From: a virus
Virus record (IMG/VR): IMGVR_UViG_3300046780_000484
Coordinates: 1-64,000 of that record
Length of the DNA stretch: 64,000 bases
Direction: 5' to 3' (one strand)
In this document: piece after piece, positions 16,958 to 43,575 of the stretch
Position numbering within the stretch: the stretch's first letter is position 1
Layout of the letters: the number at the start of each line of letters is the position of its first letter
Program-made: the position numbers and the translations under genes
Notes under the pieces: generated by a model
The model's input: the letters and a program-made list of their open reading frames with translations, nothing else
Databases searched by the model: none
What the model was told of the DNA's origin: nothing

Positions 16958-17254
16958 ATGCCGACGATCGAGTTCCCCGCGGGAATGACGCCGGAGCAGG
17001 TTCTGGCGCTCACGCGTAAGCAGCGGCCCGAGCTGTTCGGGGATGGCACGCCGGAGCCCCGTCCGTCCGAACCGGACAATATGCTCACACCGGCTGAAGT
17101 GGCACGAATGTTCAGAGTTGACCCTAAAACGGTCACGAGGTGGGCGAAGGCCGGACGCCTCCCGTGCATCAGGACCCCGGGCGGGCACCGCCGCTATCCC
17201 GAGCGCGAGGTACTGGCCATGATGAACGAGAGCCGCCAGTACAGGGCCGCCTGA
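16958..17254 (+). CDS. bldC: BldC-family MerR-like transcriptional regulator with N-terminal extension
   Basis: MLTPAEVARMFRVDPKTVTRWAKAGRL.CIRTPGGHRRY closely matches the Streptomyces BldC core as recalled; RBS GGGAGG. Confidence 0.85.
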   Translation: MPTIEFPAGMTPEQVLALTRKQRPELFGDGTPEPRPSEPDNMLTPAEVARMFRVDPKTVTRWAKAGRLPCIRTPGGHRRYPEREVLAMMNESRQYRAA

Positions 17255-33717: not shown

Positions 33718-33860
33718 TTGACATCCTCCTTGCGTAATACAAGGATTCCCGGCGGCGCTCATGCGGCACCTGCCAGAGGTTCACGCAACCGCCTCCCGGC
33801 AAGCCGGGGACTCGGCGCTGTGCGCCTGCGCGTGCTGTTAAGGCCGGCTGCCCGCCGGGC
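33718..33860 (-). ncRNA. TnpB omegaRNA scaffold / IS200-IS605 right end
   Basis: Minus strand reads GGGAATCCTTGTATTACGCAAGGAGGATGTCAA: a subterminal hairpin and a TCAA terminus at 33718, directly after the tnpB stop. The 5' limit is approximate. Confidence 0.75.
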
Positions 33861-35042
33861 CTTCCGCTCAATATTCAGAGCGGCATTCTTGTCCGCGTGA
33901 TCGGTGTGGCCGCATGCGGTGCAGGCGAACTCCCGCCCGCAGCCGGGTCTACTTTTGGGATCCACTGTCCCGCATGCCGAGCACGTTTGAGACGTGAACG
34001 GCGCGGGAACCACCCGCAGTTCGCTCCCGAACAGGGGAGCCTTGTACTCCAACTGGCGGCGCCGTTCGTAAGGGATATTGTCCAGGATCGCCCGGTTGAG
34101 AGCCGCCTTCTGGCGGATGTTCTTACCGGGAGCGTCGGCAGTACCCTTCGCGCTTGCCGTCATCCTCATCACCCGCAAGTCCTCGATGCCGACGTAGCCG
34201 TGGTTTTTGGCGAGGTCGGTCGTGAGCTTGTGGGTGAAGTCGAGCCTGCGCCGCGCTTGCCGACCGCGCAGATCAGCGATAGCGGCGTACGTCTTGCGGA
34301 GACGACTGGAGTACCGGCCGCCGTTGTGCTTCTTTGCATAGGCGAGCTGCCGCCGCGCCCGGCGCTCCAATCCAAGCAGCCGTTTCTGCTCACCCGGCGT
34401 GAGAGTCGGAGGCATCAGCCGGGGCGCATCCTCGTCGGAGACGTAGGCTGCGCAGGTAGTGCCGAAGTCCACCCCGCAACCCGGCTTCTCGTTTGCCGGA
34501 GCGGCCTTGCGGCCCGTTGCGACACCGACGACGAGATGCCATATGCCCGCACCGTTCACCTTGACCGTTGCGTTCCGCAGTTCACCGCCGAGCGATCGGG
34601 ACCAGCGGAACCGCACCCATCCGATCTTCGGGAGCCGGATTTCGCTCCAGTGTCGGTTCAGCCGCCGTATCTTCAGATCCTGGCCGGTGAACGGGACGGC
34701 AAGGATCTTGCTGCGCTTCTTGCGCTCGGGGGCACCCGCCAGATGTCGCGGGTTCCACCAGTTGTCGTAGGCGCGGTCAAGATGCCTGAGGATCTGGTGT
34801 GCGCTCTGGGCTGGCATGTCGGTCAGCCAGGGCAGGTCGGCGCGGGCCTGGGTTAGGTAGGCACTCTGATCGAAGGCGCGCAAGGTGCGCCGTCGCTGTT
34901 CCCAGACGAACCGGCGCTGCTCCAGCGCGAGATTCCAGACAGTGCGGCACATGTGACCCCAGGCAGTCAAGCGTTCCGCTTGATCTGGTTCTGGGTACAG
35001 GCGATACTTCCGCGCAGAGTCTGCCTTGCGAGTCTCGCTCAC
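33759..35042 (-). CDS. tnpB: RNA-guided endonuclease TnpB
   Basis: YRLYP N-terminal HTH, RuvC-I GVDFG, RuvC-II IEDL, Zn finger CSACG/CTACG, RuvC-III ADKNAALNI; all three catalytic acids are present. Confidence 0.96.
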   Translation of the reverse strand: MSETRKADSARKYRLYPEPDQAERLTAWGHMCRTVWNLALEQRRFVWEQRRRTLRAFDQSAYLTQARADLPWLTDMPAQSAHQILRHLDRAYDNWWNPRHLAGAPERKKRSKILAVPFTGQDLKIRRLNRHWSEIRLPKIGWVRFRWSRSLGGELRNATVKVNGAGIWHLVVGVATGRKAAPANEKPGCGVDFGTTCAAYVSDEDAPRLMPPTLTPGEQKRLLGLERRARRQLAYAKKHNGGRYSSRLRKTYAAIADLRGRQARRRLDFTHKLTTDLAKNHGYVGIEDLRVMRMTASAKGTADAPGKNIRQKAALNRAILDNIPYERRRQLEYKAPLFGSELRVVPAPFTSQTCSACGTVDPKSRPGCGREFACTACGHTDHADKNAALNIERKARRAAGLNSTRRRTAPSPRLAGRRLREPLAGAA

Positions 35043-35776
35043 GACGTCTCATCGAGCCGGTCGAATAGGCTTCTTTGCGCGCTCATGACTCCGACCAGCA
35101 GGTAGGAGTGGGCCCGGTGTGCTCGCTGCTGGCGTTTGGTTGGCTGCGGCATCCGAGAGGTGTTGACCAAGACGAACATGTCGGCCAGGTCCACGCCCGC
35201 CGCCGCCATGATCCGGATGACGTCAAGATGCACGAGGTGCAGCCGGTGGTTGTAGGTCATGTCCTGGCACTTGACCATCAGCCGCCCGGTGCCGGGAGCC
35301 AAGACGCGAGCGCACTCGCGAACACCGTCCCGGTACAGGTCCAGTACGTCGTTCATAGTCTGACGCCCGGTGGTGTTCAGCGCGTAACTGCGGCCAACCC
35401 CGAAGTTGCGCTCAGGCTTGCCGTGTACCGGCTGGTAGGGCGGGTCGAACACCGCTACGTCAACGCTGCCATCGGCGTATGGCAGGTTCCGGCAGTCGGC
35501 CACGAGGTCAGCCTTCGCGGTCGGCCGGATATCGCTGCACGTCACCTCAAGCTTGGGGGCGGATCTCCAGAACACGCCCTCGCCGCAAGTCACATCGACC
35601 ACCCGGTCATCCGAGGTGATCCACAGTTGGGCGACTTGCTCAATCAGCCGGTCATTGGTGCCGACAACCGCCGACGTGACCACATCGGGCGTTACTCCGG
35701 GGCAGATGACTGGCGCTCCATAGGCAACCGGATCTGTCGGAGTATATCGCCCGCGTAGCCCGCTACCAGGTGTCAT
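35039..35776 (-). CDS. SAM-dependent DNA amino-methyltransferase
   Basis: VVDVTCGEG motif I and FDPPY motif IV; GTGA-coupled to tnpB. Confidence 0.85.
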   Translation of the reverse strand: MTPGSGLRGRYTPTDPVAYGAPVICPGVTPDVVTSAVVGTNDRLIEQVAQLWITSDDRVVDVTCGEGVFWRSAPKLEVTCSDIRPTAKADLVADCRNLPYADGSVDVAVFDPPYQPVHGKPERNFGVGRSYALNTTGRQTMNDVLDLYRDGVRECARVLAPGTGRLMVKCQDMTYNHRLHLVHLDVIRIMAAAGVDLADMFVLVNTSRMPQPTKRQQRAHRAHSYLLVGVMSAQRSLFDRLDETS

Positions 35777-35798
35777 GTACGCAGTGTACCATATTGGG

Positions 35799-35993
35799 AT
35801 GGAGCCGAAGCGAATGGGCACACGCGAGTTGCGGGACAATCTCAGCGTCCGTATCGACGCCGCCTACGTCCGCCATGAACCGACGATCGTCACCAGGAAC
35901 GGGCGACCAAGAGCCGTACTCATCTCGTACGAGGAATGGCTCATGTCTCAAGCAAGGGGACGGGACCAGGAGGCCTGCACCGGCCCGCCATAG
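35799..35993 (+). CDS. Phd/YefM-family antitoxin-like regulator (no toxin partner)
   Basis: MGTRELRDNLS..ID......TIVTRNGRPRAVLISYEEW. Confidence 0.85.
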   Translation: MEPKRMGTRELRDNLSVRIDAAYVRHEPTIVTRNGRPRAVLISYEEWLMSQARGRDQEACTGPP

Positions 35994-36403: not shown

Positions 36404-37565
36404 TTAAAGGCGTAAGGAGCGTCGCGCTGCCATGCGCGTCAGGAGTTCGTCAATGGCCGGTCCCATGTATTTCTCGGCGACATTGCCGACCTCGTACTGG
36501 CTCACCGACTCGCGGAGTTTTACCTGGTCAACGTCCTGCCGCTGCTCGTACGACTGCTCCAGCGCCGCAACCATTCCTGAAATGGAAGGGCGAATCCACC
36601 AGCCCCTGTGGACGCCATTGAAAAACGGCTCGCCGTCCACCTGGATGCCGTCCGGGTTCAGTTCCTCCATGGACGAGCAGCGGGTCGTGATGACGGGCGT
36701 CCCGCACGCTTTTGCTTCAACGATGGGCAGCCCGAATCCTTCCGCGTACGTCGCCGCCAGCAGCACGTCGCACATCCCGTACCAGTCAGCGAGATCAGCC
36801 GGCTGGATCAGCCCCGCGTTGTACCGGTACTGGTCCACTACCCGAACCCGGTCCGTGATCCCCAGCGACTCCGCCAGGAACTCCAGGTCCTGCCCCCCGT
36901 CGCAGTGCACCGCCGTGTGCAGCCACAGCAGCGAATCCGGCCGCGACCGCAGGAACTTCGCGAACGCGAGCAGCATCTCCGCCGGCGCCTTCCTGATCGC
37001 GTCGTTGTTAGCCGCGTTCACGCCGATCACGAACGTCTCCGGGCCGAGCCCGGCCGCCTCCCGCAGCGCCGCCCGGTCCTCCGGGATGACCCACGTGTCG
37101 AACGGGATGCCGTGCGGCACGTAGAGGGCGTTGCCGAACCCGGCATCCCGGAACCGGTCCAGCCCGAACCGGGACATCGCTATCAGCGAGGCCCCGCCTG
37201 CTTCCACCACGTTCCTGTCCGCCACGGACATCGGACGGCAGTCCGCGGGCAGCCAGTGCGCCACCGGGAGTTCCTTGAGCACGCCCGGGTCCATCACCCA
37301 CACGTCGCCCAGGGTGATCACCAGATCGGGCTGGATGTGGCGGGAGTGCTGCTGGAGGGACGGGCTGCAGTACGACCCGCCGAAGCCGGGAAGGACCGGG
37401 ATGCCCTCCCACTGGGTGACGGATCCCGACAGGCCCCAGTACGTAGCGATGAACACCTCGTGGCCCAATCCGGCAAGGCGCTTTATCCAGATTGCGGTCT
37501 GTTGTCCGTAACCGCTTTAAACTGGCGGACCACGGAGCGCAGCTGCTCCACAAGATCCTCGCCAT
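36404..37565 (-). CDS. GT4-family glycosyltransferase, reading frame broken at a TTA codon (37518-37520)
   Basis: MARILWSSCAPWSAS in one frame, then GYGQQT...GHEV, VPHGI and EGFGLPIVEAKACGTPVI in the +1 frame. Confidence 0.85.
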
Positions 37566-37672
37566 TAAGCACCACCTCCCCTCGTCAGGGAGACGCGATG
37601 CCACGAAATACGGGTCACTCGCCGCCCCTCTCTAGTGCCACAGAAAATGGCGCATTGTGTTATTATGGATAA

Positions 37673-38464
37673 GTGAAAGAAATCCCCTTGCGTGGTCGCC
37701 ACGGGCAAGGTCGCGTCATGCTTGTGGATGACGAAGACTACGAGCTAATGTCCCGCATTAAATGGCACGCCATCGTCGATAACAACGGCTGCCTGAGCGT
37801 TCAGGCACGGATCTCTGCCCACAACTTCCTTACCGGCTACGCGCTGACCGATCACGCCAACGGGAACCCTCTGGACAACACCCGAGGGAACCTGCGCGAT
37901 GCCACATCCAGGCAGAACAGCTGGAACAGGCGACTCAGGAGCGACTCCCGAACTGGCTATAAAGGCGTCAACTCAAGGCGGGGCGGGCGAGGGTACGTCG
38001 CACGGATCCTCGTAGACGGGAAGCGTAAAACGCTGGGATGGTTTCACGATCCGATCAACGCCGCGAAGGCGTACGACGCGGCAGCCCGTGAAGCCTTCGG
38101 GGAGTTCGCCCGGCTTAATTTCCCGGATAGCGAAGACCTTCCGGACGCCCGGGAGTCTCGGGTTTCTCGTACGCAGCGCCGCGTCCGGGAGACGATTTCC
38201 GGAATGGAGGATCAGCCCAGCGGAAAGCAGTCCAAGTACTCGGAGGCCAGCTGGAACCGGCCCTACCGCGGGGGAACGCGGGCAGGCTTCAAGGGGGTCA
38301 ACTGGTCAGGCAGGAGATGGCAGGCTCGCATCATGAAAGACGGGAAGCGGCACTTCCTCGGCACCTACGACACCGCCGAGGAGGCGGCCCGAGCGTATGA
38401 CGCCGCCGCTTGCACCCTGTTCGGGGGTCATGCGCGGTTGAACTTCCCAGGGGAGGCGGCGTGA
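37673..38464 (+). CDS. HNH-AP2 homing endonuclease (two AP2 domains)
   Basis: LVDDEDY, DHANGNPLDNTRGNLR, and two GYKGV...ARI..G.R..LG.F....AA.AYD.AA...FG..ARLNFP domains. Confidence 0.92.
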   Translation: MKEIPLRGRHGQGRVMLVDDEDYELMSRIKWHAIVDNNGCLSVQARISAHNFLTGYALTDHANGNPLDNTRGNLRDATSRQNSWNRRLRSDSRTGYKGVNSRRGGRGYVARILVDGKRKTLGWFHDPINAAKAYDAAAREAFGEFARLNFPDSEDLPDARESRVSRTQRRVRETISGMEDQPSGKQSKYSEASWNRPYRGGTRAGFKGVNWSGRRWQARIMKDGKRHFLGTYDTAEEAARAYDAAACTLFGGHARLNFPGEAA

Positions 38465-38478
38465 TCGAGCTAGCCCGC

Positions 38479-39098
38479 TTAGTCGCTGCCGCCCTTGACC
38501 TTCGCCAGCGTCTCGACTGCTTCCGCCTTGGCGGCCTTGATCACCGGCAGCCAGAACAGTTCCTGCCGCCTGAGCCGGCGGACGACCTCCGGAGGCCAGC
38601 CCCGCTCGTCGGCCCACCGGTCATACATCAGCATCTCCGGAGGGAAATCCTCAGGGAGCTGGAAAGCGGCAGGCTGATCGGGCCGGAGGTTCCGGTCGAT
38701 GAAGAACTGCGCTAGCCGTCCTGCGAGCTTTTTGGGTCCTGCGACTCCAGGGCGTCGAGTTCCCTCAGCAGCGCCTTGGCCTTACCCAGCAGGGCCGCGT
38801 AGTCCCTGACCTTCATCACCCGAGAGATCGCCACGTCAGCCGCCGCCACGCCGTTCTGGCTGGGAATCGGCGCCGGGTACGACCAGGCCGTGATGATGCG
38901 CCCCAGGAGGGCATTCGCCTGGTCGTCCTCCATCTCCTTCGGGGAGTACTCCGTTTCCCCGCCGGGGCCTGACTTGATCTTCACGGCCCGGCGGACGATG
39001 AGCAGGTCTTCGCCCATGAGGTCGTCCAGGTCGGTCAGGTCAACCCAGTTGCTGCTGGTGCCATCGGCTTGCTTCGAGGGCAACTCGAAACGCGGCAT
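38479..39098 (-). CDS. Tail assembly chaperone gpG (38712-39098) and -1 frameshift product gpGT (to 38479)
   Basis: Follows the tail tube gene; C CCA AAA slippery site at 38736-38730; the -1 frame is open to TAA at 38479 (…RGWPPEVVRRL…WLPVI). Confidence 0.85.
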
Positions 39099-39115: not shown

Positions 39116-40504
39116 CTAGATCTCCGAGAGGTGCCGCGCCGACTGGTACATGTCGAAATCGGACACCAGGGCGTATACGGCTGTATTGTTGACAAGAGTG
39201 AGCGTTCCGGGACCAAGGCCCCCAGACCCACCCACATCGGTCGAATTCGCCACTGCCTCATATTGATTCCCGAAGCCAATGAGGCTCTTGTTGCGCATGA
39301 TCTTCGACTTGGTGAAGGCCGCCTGAGTCATGGTGAACGTCAGCGTGAACGGTGTGCCGGCGTTCGCGATACCCGCGTTCGTCGTGGTGATCGACAGCGG
39401 GGCCTGGCTGTTCAGCAGCATCAGGTCCAGCGGCATTTCCGAGTTGGTCGGGTCGAAGTCGACCTGGCCGTCGGCGGTGAGCGGCCCGCGTCCGATGATG
39501 TAGGGGGTCTGGGTGCCGGCGACGATCCAGTAAACCTGCGTCTGCCGCTTAAAGCTCACTGAAAAGTTCCCGACCCCGGCATAGGTGTTGCTGCTCGAGA
39601 TGGTGTTGCCGCCGATGACGACCGTGGAGTTCCAGTTCGGGATCGGCCTGCTGTTCGTGGTCACGTTCGTGACGGCAGTGCCGGCGATGACGGAGAGCCA
39701 CGAGTCGCCGGAGCACTTCACGCCGAGGAGCTGCTCGGCGTTGCCGCTGAAGTCGAGGCTCTTGATCACGCTGCTCGGATATAGCCGGGCACCGAACGTG
39801 GATGTCGGAACCGTCCCGTACGTGGCGCTGGTGAACGTGTTGACCAGGTTCGTGGTGTCGCAGAACGTATGGGTAGGCGGCTGCGCCCCGTACGCCCCGC
39901 CGTAGCCGAGCGGCGAGTTGAGGGCCGCGAGCTTGTGGGTGTACGGCGTGCCGCACGTCTGGACCGTGGTGGCGGTCGGGTGGGTGAAGCGCAGCGGATA
40001 GGCGGCACCTGCGGCGCTGCTGGCGAAGGTCACCACGCTGGACGCCGTGGTCGTGCCGACGATAACCACCTCGGCGACCGAGCCGGTGCCGATCTGGATG
40101 CTCGCCCCGGCCGTGTAGGAGGCCGGGGGCACGGCGGACAGGGTGCAGGAGGTGGCGCCGACGGCCAGCGCGCCGGACACGGTAGAAGGGTTCGCCAGCG
40201 ACGAGCCGGTCGTGCTCAGGTCCCCGAACACGTTGTCAAACCAGTACCCCATCGAGTCCAGGAAGTTCGGGGCACCGAAGGAGAACGTTGCCTGCTCGAC
40301 GCCGAGCGTCTTGTAGAACAGGTCCGTCATCGACCCGCGGATGGCCTTGTCGTCGAGGAAGTGAGGCATGTCCTCCGGCGAGTAGTCCGCCTGGTCCAGC
40401 GGCTGGGTGACCACGGGCACGAGGGGCGTGCCTGCGGTCAGCTCGCGCGCCATTCCGAGCCACGACAGCACACCGGGATAGACGTTGGGCGTTCCAAGCG
40501 CCAT
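39116..40504 (-). CDS. Major tail (tube) protein
   Basis: WLGMARELTAGTP N-terminus, T/S/G-rich beta protein, position before the chaperones; RBS AAGGAGG. Confidence 0.85.
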   Translation of the reverse strand: MALGTPNVYPGVLSWLGMARELTAGTPLVPVVTQPLDQADYSPEDMPHFLDDKAIRGSMTDLFYKTLGVEQATFSFGAPNFLDSMGYWFDNVFGDLSTTGSSLANPSTVSGALAVGATSCTLSAVPPASYTAGASIQIGTGSVAEVVIVGTTTASSVVTFASSAAGAAYPLRFTHPTATTVQTCGTPYTHKLAALNSPLGYGGAYGAQPPTHTFCDTTNLVNTFTSATYGTVPTSTFGARLYPSSVIKSLDFSGNAEQLLGVKCSGDSWLSVIAGTAVTNVTTNSRPIPNWNSTVVIGGNTISSSNTYAGVGNFSVSFKRQTQVYWIVAGTQTPYIIGRGPLTADGQVDFDPTNSEMPLDLMLLNSQAPLSITTTNAGIANAGTPFTLTFTMTQAAFTKSKIMRNKSLIGFGNQYEAVANSTDVGGSGGLGPGTLTLVNNTAVYALVSDFDMYQSARHLSEI

Positions 40505-42577: not shown

Positions 42578-43575
42578 TCAGACGGTACGGCGGAAAGCAT
42601 GCAAAAGAAGCTCACCCTCAGCGATCAGGTCCTCTGCGCCCTTGTCGCTGGACTGCGCCGCGCCGCCTACCGCGTGGATTGTCGTGGACGTCGCGCCCCG
42701 CGTGAGGGCCTCGGCGGTGCAGAAGTAGATGCACGCCTGCTGCACCGAGGACGGCATCGTCGTGACCACCGTCCCCGCCTGATGCGGGTAGGTGATCGCC
42801 TGCGAAAGGGTGAGGTTCCCCGGCCCGGAAGCAGCCGAGGTGGCGGTGACGTGGATGGATTCCTGCTGGCCGCCGTCCTGGATCACCCCGGTAGCCCCGG
42901 TGACCGTGCCGTAGTAGTTCGTGATCCCCCACCCGGTGCAGTCGTTCACCGGCAGCGACGTCGCTCCCGCCGCGACAGCGGAGGTGAGGGAGCAGTGCGG
43001 GTACCCGTTGATGTAGGTGACCTCGGCCGCCCACCCGTTCCGGCCGAGGGACCAGTTGATGTACCCGCCGCCCACGAGGATCGCCTGGCCGCCCTCGGCC
43101 GACCCGCCCGAGGAGACCGTGTTGAGCAGGCTAAGGGGGGGCACTTCGGGCTCGAAGAACCCGGACGGCAAGGACGTCCACGTGCGGGGCCACATCCCGT
43201 TCGGGCAGGTCTTCACCCCGGTCACCTGGAGTACCGGCCACCTGGACAGGATGATGCGGGCGTTCTGCGCCCCGGTGTTCCCCCAGTACGGCGTCGGCCA
43301 GGACCCGCCCGAGGCGGGGCCGACCGTCACCCGGTAGTCGGGGCCGTGGACCAGTTCGACGTCGATCGTGGCGCGGAGAGTCTGGGCGACGTAGCCGTCC
43401 GTACGGGCCGTGGCCCTTGCTGCCATGCTCCAGATTTCAGCCATATTCTGCGCTGGTGTCGGATCTGCGGTGGGTTCGCCTATCGTGCTCCAGTCGATGC
43501 TAAACCGGTCGGGGCCGTAATCAAGGTGGTCGGACTGATGTATGGAGCCAGACCAAGAGGAAGCGGCGTCGACAC
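42578..43575 (-). CDS. Head-to-tail adaptor-like protein, reading frame broken at a TTA codon (43501-43503)
   Basis: GTG 43575 with RBS GAGGTG gives STPLPLGLAPYISPTTLITAPTG, which continues as IDWSTI...RATARTDGY...VTY..GY...MP..VQQAC...LL..FRR in another frame. Confidence 0.75.

What the first reader, a model, noticed from the sequence alone, without database searches (positions are those of the whole stretch)
37508..37565. Glycosyltransferase broken at a rare TTA codon with matched Ser take-off and landing codons: candidate UUA-triggered translational bypass
Seen (minus strand): ATG 37565 ...TCC GCC AGT TTA A AGC GGT TAC GGA CAA. The typical GT4 N-terminus (…APWSAS-GYGQQT) is restored only if 7 nt are skipped, i.e. 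a tRNA-Ser leaves AGT, passes TTA and re-pairs on AGC. Decoding TTA normally leads into an unrelated frame. TTA is very rare in the coding frames I read. Known: UUA is decoded by the developmentally controlled bldA tRNA in Streptomyces, and UUA-associated bypassing has been proposed for Streptomyces phage genes such as the phiHau3 terminase. Inference: the full-length enzyme is made only when Leu-tRNA(UAA) is scarce, so the phage senses the host developmental stage.
Basis: partly seen in the sequence, partly recalled or inferred. Interest (0 to 1): 0.85.

Follow-up and report, generated by a model that had tools for sequence, protein, structure and literature searches.

The report
TTA-led ribosome hop in phage glycosyltransferase
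A soil phage's sugar-transferase gene is interrupted after codon 15 by seven real extra bases that begin with the almost unused codon TTA, and a series of differently interrupted relatives indicates that ribosomes hop over them, a rare way of decoding published so far only for a Streptomyces phage terminase.

Summary
Observation confirmed. On the minus strand, ATG 37565 opens 15 codons (MARILWSSCAPWSAS). Then come TTA-A-AGC (37520-37514), and the GT4 body (GGT 37513 to stop 36404) runs in the +1 frame. A second assembler and a contig from another study reproduce the 7 nt.

Of 51 distinct junction sequences of this gene family:
- 39 are intact.
- 11 carry non-3n inserts of 4, 5 or 7 nt at the same loop.
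- 1 carries an in-frame 9-nt insert.

All 12 inserts start with TTA in the upstream frame. In 5 of 6 gap types the codon before TTA and the codon before resumption are read by one tRNA (AGT/AGC, TAT/TAC, CCG/CCG, ACT/ACC). Both gene pieces are under purifying selection in their own frames, and no allele has another break. TTA is 6 of 23,624 codons in this genome. A second gene (43499-43503) has a 5-nt TTA gap.

Best reading: UUA-triggered short translational bypass, as proposed for the phiHau3 terminase, here in a new gene family with a natural allelic series. That it senses host development is untested, and a link to the adjacent homing endonuclease is only suggestive. No experiment supports the hop.

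The scan found this phenomenon before on other DNA (e1-5783056, e1-5877503).

The parts
37521..37565 (-). N-terminal exon of the glycosyltransferase: ATG plus 14 codons (MARILWSSCAPWSAS). The last codon, AGT (37523-37521), is the proposed take-off codon.
   Evidence: Identical to residues 1-15 of the intact homologue P0003. In 9 TTA-bearing alleles (8 frame-breaking, 1 in-frame) this segment has pN/pS 0.28 in its own frame, against 0.95 and 2.82 in the other two frames.
37514..37520 (-). 7-nt coding gap: TTA (37520-37518), A (37517), and AGC (37516-37514), the proposed landing codon. TAA (37518-37516) closes the body frame.
   Evidence: Absent from 39 intact alleles. Reproduced in contigs of two runs.
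36404..37513 (-). Body of the GT4 (GT-B fold) glycosyltransferase, from GGT (the G of GYG) to stop TAA 36404-36406. It holds an in-frame TTA three codons before the stop (36415-36413).
   Evidence: Pfam PF13692 and PF00534. 83% identity with no gaps to P0003 residues 16-380. AlphaFold model of P0003 has pLDDT 89; its best PDB match is MshA, E 9e-20. TTA position.
37527..37558 (-). Predicted two-part RNA hairpin inside the N-terminal exon. It ends 3 nt before the take-off codon.
   Evidence: Median MFE is -13.5 kcal/mol in 12 TTA-bearing alleles against -7.4 in 39 intact ones (Mann-Whitney p 3.8e-5). 75% against 56% of cells are paired. Covariation is modest.
37570..37580 (-). Extended Shine-Dalgarno site (GGGAGGTGGTG) of the ATG at 37565. 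It is the 3' arm of a small leader hairpin (about 37575-37593).
   Evidence: GGAGG lies upstream in 9 of 11 gap alleles and 1 of 1 in-frame TTA allele, against 0 of 39 intact alleles.
37565..37618 (-). Upstream small ORF (VTRISWHRVSLTRGGGA, then stop). It begins at what looks like the ancestral start of the gene (VTRISWH resembles MxRILWH). Its TAA overlaps the new ATG as TAATG.
   Evidence: Compared with L026, which has the same upstream DNA but starts the enzyme directly.
37673..38464 (+). Free-standing HNH-AP2 homing-endonuclease gene. It is divergent from, and directly upstream of, the rebuilt 5' end of the glycosyltransferase.
   Evidence: Pfam AP2 2.7e-10; HNH_3 0.0019 (18.3 bits, below Pfam's 24.8-bit cut-off). 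PHROG 99 HNH endonuclease 4e-55. Homologues lie next to the gene in 4 gap alleles and also in at least 2 intact alleles.
43499..43503 (-). Second TTA-led coding gap (TTAGC, 5 nt) in a 330-aa structural-module gene. The exon runs 43575-43504 (VSTPLPLGLAPYISPTTLITAPTG, last codon GGT). The body runs from ATC 43498 to the stop at 42578.
   Evidence: Intact homologues read ...APTG directly followed by IDW... (36 of 120). Relatives L108 and L109 have TTA-led gaps of 10 and 16 nt at the same place.

Best explanation
The glycosyltransferase is one gene written in two frames, and the ribosome joins the pieces by a short translational bypass.

Proposed steps (all inferred, none shown):
1. Translation starts at ATG 37565 behind a very strong Shine-Dalgarno site.
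2. After 15 codons the almost unused codon UUA enters the A site, and the ribosome waits for a scarce Leu-tRNA(UAA).
3. The peptidyl-tRNA(Ser), held on AGU only by a G-U wobble, lets go and slides 7 nt.
4. It re-pairs on AGC, a full Watson-Crick match.
5. Decoding resumes at GGU, giving the canonical ...PWSAS | GYGQQT... enzyme.
6. If UUA is decoded as Leu instead, the ribosome makes an unrelated out-of-frame product.

A hairpin that ends 3 nt before the take-off codon may help the forward move. So may queueing of ribosomes behind a pause only 15 codons from a strong start.

What is shown: the anatomy, its reality in reads, its recurrence in relatives, and selection on both pieces.

What the gap is for is open. 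It could be a sensor of the supply of Leu-tRNA(UAA), or a tolerated scar that moves with selfish DNA.
For: (1) Position. Of 51 distinct junction sequences, 11 have non-3n inserts and 1 has an in-frame 9-nt insert. All lie within a 4-codon stretch of the beta1-alpha1 loop. None of these alleles has any other break in a body of 361-385 codons where complete (L097 is cut at 213).

(2) TTA. All 12 inserts begin with TTA in the upstream frame. The GT bodies of the loci scanned hold only 2 TTA codons in all. The genome holds 6 per 23,624 codons.

(3) Matched codons. There are six gap types:
- AGT TTAA AGC
- AGY TTAA TGC
- TAT T TAC
- CCG TTAG CCG
- AGT TT AGC
- ACT TT ACC
In 5 of 6, take-off and landing codons are read by one tRNA. 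In four types the take-off codon ends in T and the landing codon in C, although AGT and TAT are only 12.5% and 11.4% of AGY and TAY here. Gaps of 4, 5 and 7 nt would need +1, -1 and +1 shifts. One hop rule explains all of them and always restores the invariant PWxxSGYG spacing.

(4) In-frame variants. Seven further homologues have in-frame 2-residue inserts, all of the form X-L-X (PLP four times, ALA once, SLS twice).

(5) Blocked frameshift. In types A, B and D a stop (TAA or TAG) lies in the body frame inside the gap, so a +1 shift at or before TTA terminates.

(6) Selection. The N-terminal exon has pN/pS 0.28 in its own frame, against 0.95 and 2.82 in the others. Body dN/dS among TTA-bearing alleles is 0.16-0.48, and 0.21 for the sister pair window/L016.

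(7) Structure. The exon encodes strand beta1 and the loop before helix alpha1 of the Rossmann fold. A protein started inside the body would lack both.

(8) A second gene in this genome, and its 2 relatives with DNA in hand, have TTA-led gaps of 5, 10 and 16 nt exactly where intact homologues are continuous.

(9) Precedent. UUA-led 10-nt and 7-nt gaps occur in the terminase genes of phiHau3 and two prophages, with a junction peptide seen by mass spectrometry in E. coli (PMC10732093; outline, section 3.4 and passages read).
Against: - No protein, ribosome or RNA evidence exists for this gene. The mechanism rests on comparison only.
- Type B alleles (AGY to TGC) and all three gaps of the second gene (GGT to AGC twice, ACA to TCA once) match the departing tRNA only at codon positions 2 and 3.
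- The same gene has an in-frame TTA three codons before its stop (non-conserved tail). It must be decoded or rescued, which argues against UUA never being read in the host.
- In-frame 6-nt and 9-nt variants exist. The loop may therefore tolerate extra residues, and a Leu-containing frameshift product cannot be excluded by sequence.
- The take-off site is only 15 codons from the start, where short peptidyl-tRNAs drop off easily (recalled knowledge).
- Hairpin covariation is modest: 18-22 of 500 shuffles reach the observed values, and intact alleles also pair at 56%.
- Gap alleles may share 5' modules by recombination, so the number of independent origins is uncertain.
- The host and its tRNA-Leu(UAA) supply are unknown.
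Confidence: 0.75

Rival explanations
1. Origin and purpose rival, compatible with the hop. The gap, together with the rebuilt 5' end, is a scar or immunity mark of selfish DNA. It destroys a homing-endonuclease target in a conserved coding stretch without changing the protein, as the 50-nt gene 60 insert does for MobA in T4. The hop is then constitutive tolerance, not regulation.
For: - An HNH-AP2 endonuclease gene abuts the rebuilt 5' end in the window. Homologues lie next to the gene in gap alleles L021, L069 and L080.
- ORFs that look like other HNH endonucleases (by eye, not scanned) lie near L074, L002, L004 and L007.
- The window keeps a remnant of the old start followed by a second copy of the first codons.
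- Window and L016/L038 are 93-97% identical from the Shine-Dalgarno site to the gap, but only about 50-80% beyond it.
- In 9 of 9 gap/intact neighbour pairs, the exon is more diverged at synonymous sites than the body.
- Gap alleles are scattered over the tree.
- The T4 precedent comes from passages of the preprint 10.1101/2022.08.31.505936. Scan note e1-5877503 reached the same idea on other DNA.
Against: - The endonuclease homologue also sits next to intact alleles L026/L030 and L043.
- It is absent next to gap alleles L016/L038, L015 and L023.
- No target site is known.
- This reading does not explain why every insert begins with TTA, unless the hop needs it.
- The exon comparison has only about 8-10 synonymous sites per pair.
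Confidence: 0.35
2. UUA is decoded as Leu, and the frame is then restored by a +1 shift (or -1 in 5-nt alleles). The enzyme would carry one or two extra residues in the loop.
For: - In-frame alleles with extra L-containing residues exist (L074; 7 proteins), so the loop may tolerate them.
- After Leu decoding, a UUA-to-UAA slip would keep 2 of 3 base pairs.
Against: - It needs three different mechanisms for 4-, 5- and 7-nt gaps.
- It gives no reason for the matched flanking codons or the X-L-X rule.
- A-site AAG after UUA is not a slow codon (inference).
- In the 4-nt type a Leu would fall inside the GYG motif, which is invariant across the aligned homologues (35).
- For the terminase precedent, a +1-frame stop placed in the gap did not lower recoding (PMC10732093, passage).
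Confidence: 0.08
3. The allele is dead or truncated. Either the insert inactivated a dispensable gene, or a shorter enzyme starts at TTG 37468, as the gene callers assume.
For: - Gene callers start 37 of the 120 best homologues inside the body.
- The enzyme is an accessory function (PHROG category 'moron, auxiliary metabolic gene').
Against: - All 11 breaks lie in one 4-codon stretch of an 1,100-nt gene, and none lies elsewhere.
- The exon is under purifying selection in its own frame.
- Body dN/dS is 0.21 between two gap-bearing sisters.
- No Shine-Dalgarno site precedes TTG 37468.
- A truncated protein would lack beta1, the GYG loop and alpha1.
Confidence: 0.06
4. Assembly or sequencing artefact.
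For: The record is a metagenome-derived viral contig, and the insert lies in a T3A3 run.
Against: - A second assembler gives the identical sequence.
- A contig from another study covers the junction without a gap.
- The same 7 nt stand in L016/L038 and L021, from other assemblies.
Confidence: 0.01

Closest known systems
UUA-mediated short-gap bypassing proposed for the large terminase of Streptomyces phage phiHau3 and the StrepC.1 and S. catenulae prophages (Smith et al. 2013 as cited; Antonov et al. 2023, PMC10732093)
   Same: - A frame-disrupting insert a few nucleotides long that begins with UUA.
- Flanks that are adjacent in intact homologues.
- UUA nearly absent from the phage.
- A proposed take-off and landing by the peptidyl-tRNA.
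- A nearby 5' stem-loop.
   Different: - A different gene family (GT4 glycosyltransferase, plus a second structural-module gene).
- Gaps of 4, 5 and 7 nt rather than 7 and 10.
- The site is only 15 codons from the start, behind an unusually strong Shine-Dalgarno site and an upstream small ORF.
- Frequency: 11 of 51 distinct alleles in six types here, against 3 of 100 terminase genes there.
- The host is unknown, and there is no experiment here.
Phage T4 gene 60 bypass within the MobA homing-endonuclease element (preprint 10.1101/2022.08.31.505936, passages read)
   Same: - Matched take-off and landing codons.
- A 5' hairpin.
- An adjacent HNH endonuclease gene.
- An element-borne copy of the interrupted coding stretch.
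- Scattered distribution among close relatives.
   Different: - A 50-nt gap with a UAG stop and a nascent-peptide signal there, against 7 nt led by a rare sense codon here.
- Here the endonuclease association is loose, and cutting was not tested.
Bypassing at 'hungry' or slow codons in E. coli constructs (Gallant and Lindsley; Kane et al. 1992 two-codon hop; seen only as references 47-52 of PMC10732093, otherwise recalled)
   Same: A slow A-site codon lets the peptidyl-tRNA slide to a nearby cognate codon. Short in-frame and out-of-frame hops both occur.
   Different: Those are low-level events in artificial or overexpressed genes. Here the gap is a conserved natural feature of a gene family.
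GT4 retaining glycosyltransferases of GT-B fold (MshA, BshA, PimA, WaaG)
   Same: - Pfam Glycos_transf_1 and Glyco_trans_1_4 match the window's body.
- A model of the intact homologue P0003 matches MshA at E 9e-20 with TM 0.75.
   Different: Only 13-19% identity to solved enzymes. Donor and acceptor are unknown. The gene sits among phage structural genes.

Membership tests
UUA-led short coding gap crossed by translational bypass (phiHau3 terminase type) | A short frame-disrupting insert whose flanks are adjacent in intact homologues | tested here: met
   the 15-codon exon plus the body are colinear with P0003 with no gap. 39 intact alleles lack the insert.
UUA-led short coding gap crossed by translational bypass (phiHau3 terminase type) | UUA is the first codon of the insert in the upstream frame and is very rare in the phage | tested here: met
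   12 of 12 inserted alleles begin with TTA. TTA is 6 of 23,624 codons, and 0-7 per 1,850-5,147 codons in related contigs.
UUA-led short coding gap crossed by translational bypass (phiHau3 terminase type) | The landing codon is cognate to the tRNA on the take-off codon | tested here: met
   Window: AGT to AGC. Met in 5 of 6 gap types. Type B and the second gene match at positions 2 and 3 only.
UUA-led short coding gap crossed by translational bypass (phiHau3 terminase type) | Stimulatory 5' stem-loop and internal Shine-Dalgarno-like sequence near the site | tested here: inconclusive
   The hairpin is stronger in TTA alleles (p 3.8e-5; 75% against 56% paired), but covariation is modest. By reading, no internal SD-like sequence was seen within about 30 nt of the take-off codon (no search was run). 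The strong SD is that of the start codon, about 55 nt upstream.
UUA-led short coding gap crossed by translational bypass (phiHau3 terminase type) | A junction peptide without Leu, and dependence on the supply of Leu-tRNA(UAA) | not testable with these tools
   Needs mass spectrometry and reporters in bldA+ and bldA- hosts.
T4 gene 60 / MobA-type bypass cassette | A 50-nt gap with a stop codon directly after the take-off codon, plus a nascent-peptide signal | tested here: not met
   The gap is 7 nt. A sense codon (TTA) follows the take-off codon. The nascent chain is only 15 residues.
T4 gene 60 / MobA-type bypass cassette | The gap travels with an adjacent homing endonuclease and protects against it | tested here: inconclusive
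   An HNH-AP2 gene is adjacent in the window. Homologues lie beside both gap alleles and intact alleles, and are absent beside several gap alleles. Cleavage cannot be tested.
Programmed -1 or +1 ribosomal frameshift | A slippery site whose shift leads into the downstream coding frame | tested here: not met
   T_TTA_AAG is present, but the -1 frame stops after 12 codons. The +1 frame meets TAA inside the gap.
GT4 glycosyltransferase (GT-B fold) | Glycos_transf_1 domain and two Rossmann-like domains | tested here: met
   PF00534 4e-12 and PF13692 1e-12. Model pLDDT 89. Top PDB matches are MshA, BshA, PimA and WaaG.

The most novel reading that the evidence does not exclude
TTA-led coding gaps are a general, mobile decoding device of a large group of soil actinophages. 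Small cassettes (strong start site, 5' hairpin, TTA gap with a matched landing codon) spread between phage genomes, possibly with homing endonucleases. They settle in several genes of the structural module. They make the yield of those proteins depend on how well the host reads UUA. In that case a phage that also carries a BldC-family regulator would read its host's developmental state through the ribosome.
Probability: 0.3. Interest if true: 0.85.

Novelty: new member of a known kind. Interest (0 to 1): 0.7.

Why it matters
Natural translational bypassing is among the rarest decoding events known. The UUA-led form rests in print on three terminase genes.

This gene family adds:
- a natural allelic series, with gaps of 4, 5 and 7 nt, in-frame 6-nt and 9-nt forms, six junction types and intact sisters;
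- a second gapped gene in the same genome.

Together these amount to a ready-made mutational analysis. They point to the rule (UUA in the A site, and a landing codon that fits the departing tRNA at least at positions 2 and 3). They point to candidate helpers (a 5' hairpin, a strong start). They also give short cassettes that can go straight into reporters.

There is a practical consequence too. Gene callers start 37 of the 120 best homologues of this enzyme inside the body, and 79 of 120 of the second gene, plausibly for this reason; of the 6 such enzyme calls whose DNA was in hand, 5 bear a gap.

Tried and rejected
- No phage record matched by DNA. By protein there were only distant cyanophage and actinophage glycosyltransferases. 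The 462-aa ORF beside the gene (39116-40504, a possible capsid gene with no family hit) matched no phage record. So no cultured relative or host could be named.
- Genome contigs gave one distant hit (29% identity, L052), which was not used.
- No tRNA or tmRNA gene was found in the window or in the whole 81.6-kb record. The phage, which is estimated 67% complete, brings no UUA decoder of its own as far as it is sequenced.
- Two crude scans of the genome for further TTA-linked frame changes gave mostly noise. The candidates at 69362, 51410, 25378, 28106, 44867, 62490 and 64170 are plain continuous ORFs. Each scan also missed one of the two real gaps, so these scans are not exhaustive.
- Folding 37470-37640 as a whole is not unusual (z -0.93). 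Only the local hairpin differs between allele classes.
- No RNA holder was listed for the stretch. Runs X3 and X4 had no cover over the junction.
- The second gene has no Pfam or PHROG match, so I do not call it an adaptor.
- A transposon footprint (TTAA or TTAG target) was considered and dropped. Intact alleles hold no such target, and the 4-nt and 5-nt gaps do not fit.
- Transcriptional slippage was dropped because there is no long homopolymer.
- Rows left out of the 51-allele count: loci without the 5' end (L029, L032, L039, L040, L044, L045, L048-L050, L081); distant or unrelated loci (L051, L052, L094-L096, L098, L101); and repeats of the same junction sequence.
- The tree used 46 complete bodies. 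The exon selection test used the 9 alleles with a Ser take-off codon.
- Supplements of PMC10732093 (the terminase gap sequences) were not seen. They may bear on how alike the landing rules are.
Full report
**What is there**

On the minus strand, an ATG at 37565 sits behind GGGAGGTGGTG and opens 15 codons, MARILWSSCAPWSAS. The last codon is AGT (37523-37521). Next come TTA (37520-37518), a single A, and AGC. From GGT (37513) a 369-codon GT4 glycosyltransferase body runs to the stop at 36404 in the +1 frame.

TAA (37518-37516) closes that frame upstream. The ATG frame continues for 183 unrelated codons.

The body aligns without a gap to residues 16-380 of the intact 381-aa homologue P0003 at 83% identity. 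P0003's first 15 residues are identical to the window's short ORF. So exactly 7 nt separate two pieces that are adjacent elsewhere.

The window is part of an 81,627-base viral record of 68.5% G+C, estimated 67% complete.

**Is it real?**

A 26,251-nt contig made by another assembler from run X1 covers 36900-37900 with no difference. X1 may be the source sample. A 151-nt contig of run X2, from another study, covers 37480-37630 with one other letter and no gap. The same 7 nt also stand in contigs L016/L038 and L021 from other assemblies. An artefact is excluded for practical purposes.

**Relatives**

I collected loci from viral contigs and metagenomes and by a pattern scan. After dropping loci without the 5' end, distant loci and repeated sequences, 51 distinct junction sequences remain:

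- 39 are intact, with invariant spacing PWxxSGYG.
- 11 have non-3n inserts.
- 1 (L074) has an in-frame 9-nt insert.

The gap types are:

| Type | Junction | Gap length | Where |
|---|---|---|---|
| A | AGT TTAA AGC | 7 nt | window, L016, L021 |
| B | AGY TTAA TGC | 7 nt | L002, L023 |
| C | TAT T TAC | 4 nt | L004 |
| D | CCG TTAG CCG | 7 nt | L007 |
| E | AGT TT AGC | 5 nt | L015, L069, L080 |
| F | ACT TT ACC | 5 nt | L097/L100, a more distant enzyme |

Every insert starts with TTA in the upstream frame. All lie within four codons of one loop. No gap allele has another break in its 361-372-codon body where complete (L097's body is cut at 213).

The GT bodies of the loci scanned hold only two TTA codons, both near the C-terminus. 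The genome has 6 TTA in 23,624 codons of crude ORFs.

Among the 120 best protein homologues:

- 74 have the canonical start.
- 37 are called from inside the body.
- 7 carry in-frame two-residue inserts, all of the form X-L-X (PLP, ALA, SLS).
- 2 are other cases.

Of the 6 short calls whose DNA I hold, 5 are gap alleles.

**Why a hop**

- In 5 of 6 gap types, the codon before TTA and the codon before resumption are read by the same tRNA. With about 1 chance in 16 per type, this is roughly 6 in a million by my own rough arithmetic.
- In four types the first codon ends in T (a wobble pair) and the second in C. Yet AGT and TAT are only 12.5% and 11.4% of their pairs here.
- Gaps of 4, 5 and 7 nt would need +1, -1 and +1 shifts. 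A single rule explains all: wait at UUA, leave, re-pair downstream. That rule always restores the invariant spacing.
- In types A, B and D a stop lies in the body frame inside the gap, so an early +1 shift would terminate.
- The -1 frame from the T_TTA_AAG heptamer ends after 12 codons.
- The 13 codons before the gap have pN/pS 0.28 in the ATG frame, against 0.95 and 2.82 in the other frames (9 alleles, 36 pairs). So the exon is translated in its own frame.
- Body dN/dS is 0.16-0.48 among TTA-bearing alleles (10 gap plus L074), and 0.21 between the sisters window and L016.
- A model of P0003 (pLDDT 89) places residues 3-9 in strand beta1, residues 10-15 in a loop, and residues 16-30 in helix alpha1. 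The fold matches MshA, BshA, PimA and WaaG. A protein started at TTG 37468 would lack the first beta-alpha unit.

**A second gap in the same genome**

I followed scan note e1-6133442. At 43575 a GTG opens 24 codons, VSTPLPLGLAPYISPTTLITAPTG, ending in GGT. Then come TTAGC (43503-43499), and the body resumes at ATC 43498.

Intact homologues read ...APTG directly followed by IDW... in 36 of the 120 best hits. 79 of 120 are called from an internal Met. The two relatives with DNA in hand have TTA-led gaps of 10 nt (L108) and 16 nt (L109) at the same place.

Here the landing codons fit the departing tRNA only at positions 2 and 3, as in type B.

**Extra signals**

- GGAGG lies upstream in 9 of 11 gap alleles and in the in-frame TTA allele, but in 0 of 39 intact alleles. 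The two exceptions have GGGGGTGATGC.
- Many gap alleles keep the old start as a small upstream ORF. Its stop, or a TTA, overlaps the new start codon. The window has TAATG.
- A hairpin ending 3 nt before the take-off codon is more stable in the 12 TTA alleles (median -13.5 kcal/mol) than in the 39 intact alleles (-7.4; p 3.8e-5, and p 0.006 against a G+C-matched subset). Cells are paired at 75% against 56%, but covariation is modest.
- My suggestions that refolding of this hairpin, or ribosome queues behind a pause 15 codons from a strong start, push the ribosome forward are inferences.

**Origin**

Gap alleles are scattered over the body tree, and well-supported branches force at least 7 changes. 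Window and L016/L038 are 93-97% identical from the Shine-Dalgarno site to the gap, but about 50-80% beyond it. In 9 of 9 gap/intact neighbour pairs the exon is more diverged at synonymous sites than the body (there are few sites).

An HNH-AP2 homing-endonuclease gene (37673-38464) abuts the rebuilt 5' end. This recalls the MobA cassette of T4 gene 60 (preprint, passages).

However, endonuclease homologues also flank intact alleles (L026, L043), and they are missing beside several gap alleles. The link stays suggestive.

**Context and literature**

The window also encodes a BldC-family regulator (NF033787, 97.8 bits against a cut-off of 77). This fits an actinomycete host, but the host is not known.

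UUA-led bypassing is in print for the phiHau3 terminase and two prophages, 3 of 100 terminase genes, with a junction peptide seen in E. coli (PMC10732093; outline, section 3.4 and passages). That paper does not mention glycosyltransferases (0 occurrences). A full-text search for 'translational bypassing' + 'glycosyltransferase' + 'phage' found no paper. The searches found nothing nearer.

Earlier notes of this scan describe the same phenomenon on other DNA.

**Verdict**

The bypass reading is strongly supported by comparison but unproven. The developmental-sensor idea is untested. The in-frame TTA near this gene's own stop argues against a simple switch.

This is a new member of a known, very rare kind, with an unusually informative natural allelic series.

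Noticed in passing
window 43499-43575 (minus strand): A second TTA-led coding gap (TTAGC, 5 nt) in a 330-aa structural-module gene of no known family. Relatives L108 and L109 have 10-nt and 16-nt TTA-led gaps at the same spot. 79 of the 120 best homologues are called from an internal Met.
   Followed up: yes
window 37565-37618 (minus strand); L002, L016/L038, L019, L021, L074: Gap alleles keep the ancestral start as a small upstream ORF. It runs through a hairpin that pairs with the new strong Shine-Dalgarno site. It ends in a stop overlapping the new start (TAATG, TGATG), or carries a TTA overlapping it (TTATG) and then stops at the TAA inside the gap. L019 has this leader but an intact junction. 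This resembles the UUA-bearing upstream ORF described for adpA in PMC10732093.
   Followed up: partly
window 37673-38464 (+): A free-standing HNH-AP2 homing-endonuclease gene inserted between the small upstream gene (38479-38634) and the glycosyltransferase. Relatives have it in either orientation, or a different-looking HNH gene, or none.
   Followed up: partly
window 36413-36415 (minus strand): An in-frame TTA three codons before the stop of the same glycosyltransferase, in a non-conserved C-terminal tail. L057 has one 12 codons before its stop.
   Followed up: partly
window 16958-17254 (+): A 98-aa protein that passes the NCBIfam cut-off for the BldC family of developmental regulators. This hints at an actinomycete host and at interference with the host's Bld pathway.
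   Followed up: partly
window 33759-35042 (minus strand): A TnpB / Cas12f-like gene (OrfB_IS605, TNB domain) two genes downstream of the glycosyltransferase, next to a DNA methyltransferase gene (35039-35839).
   Followed up: no
genome about 74,800 (beyond the window's end): A stretch that looks like the T-arm and 3' end of a tRNA, although ARAGORN finds no tRNA gene in the record. It may be an attachment-site core.
   Followed up: no
L100 (IMGVR_UViG_3300032892_000002): This contig carries two related glycosyltransferase genes. One has the 5-nt ACT TT ACC gap. The other is an intact 553-codon paralogue.
   Followed up: no
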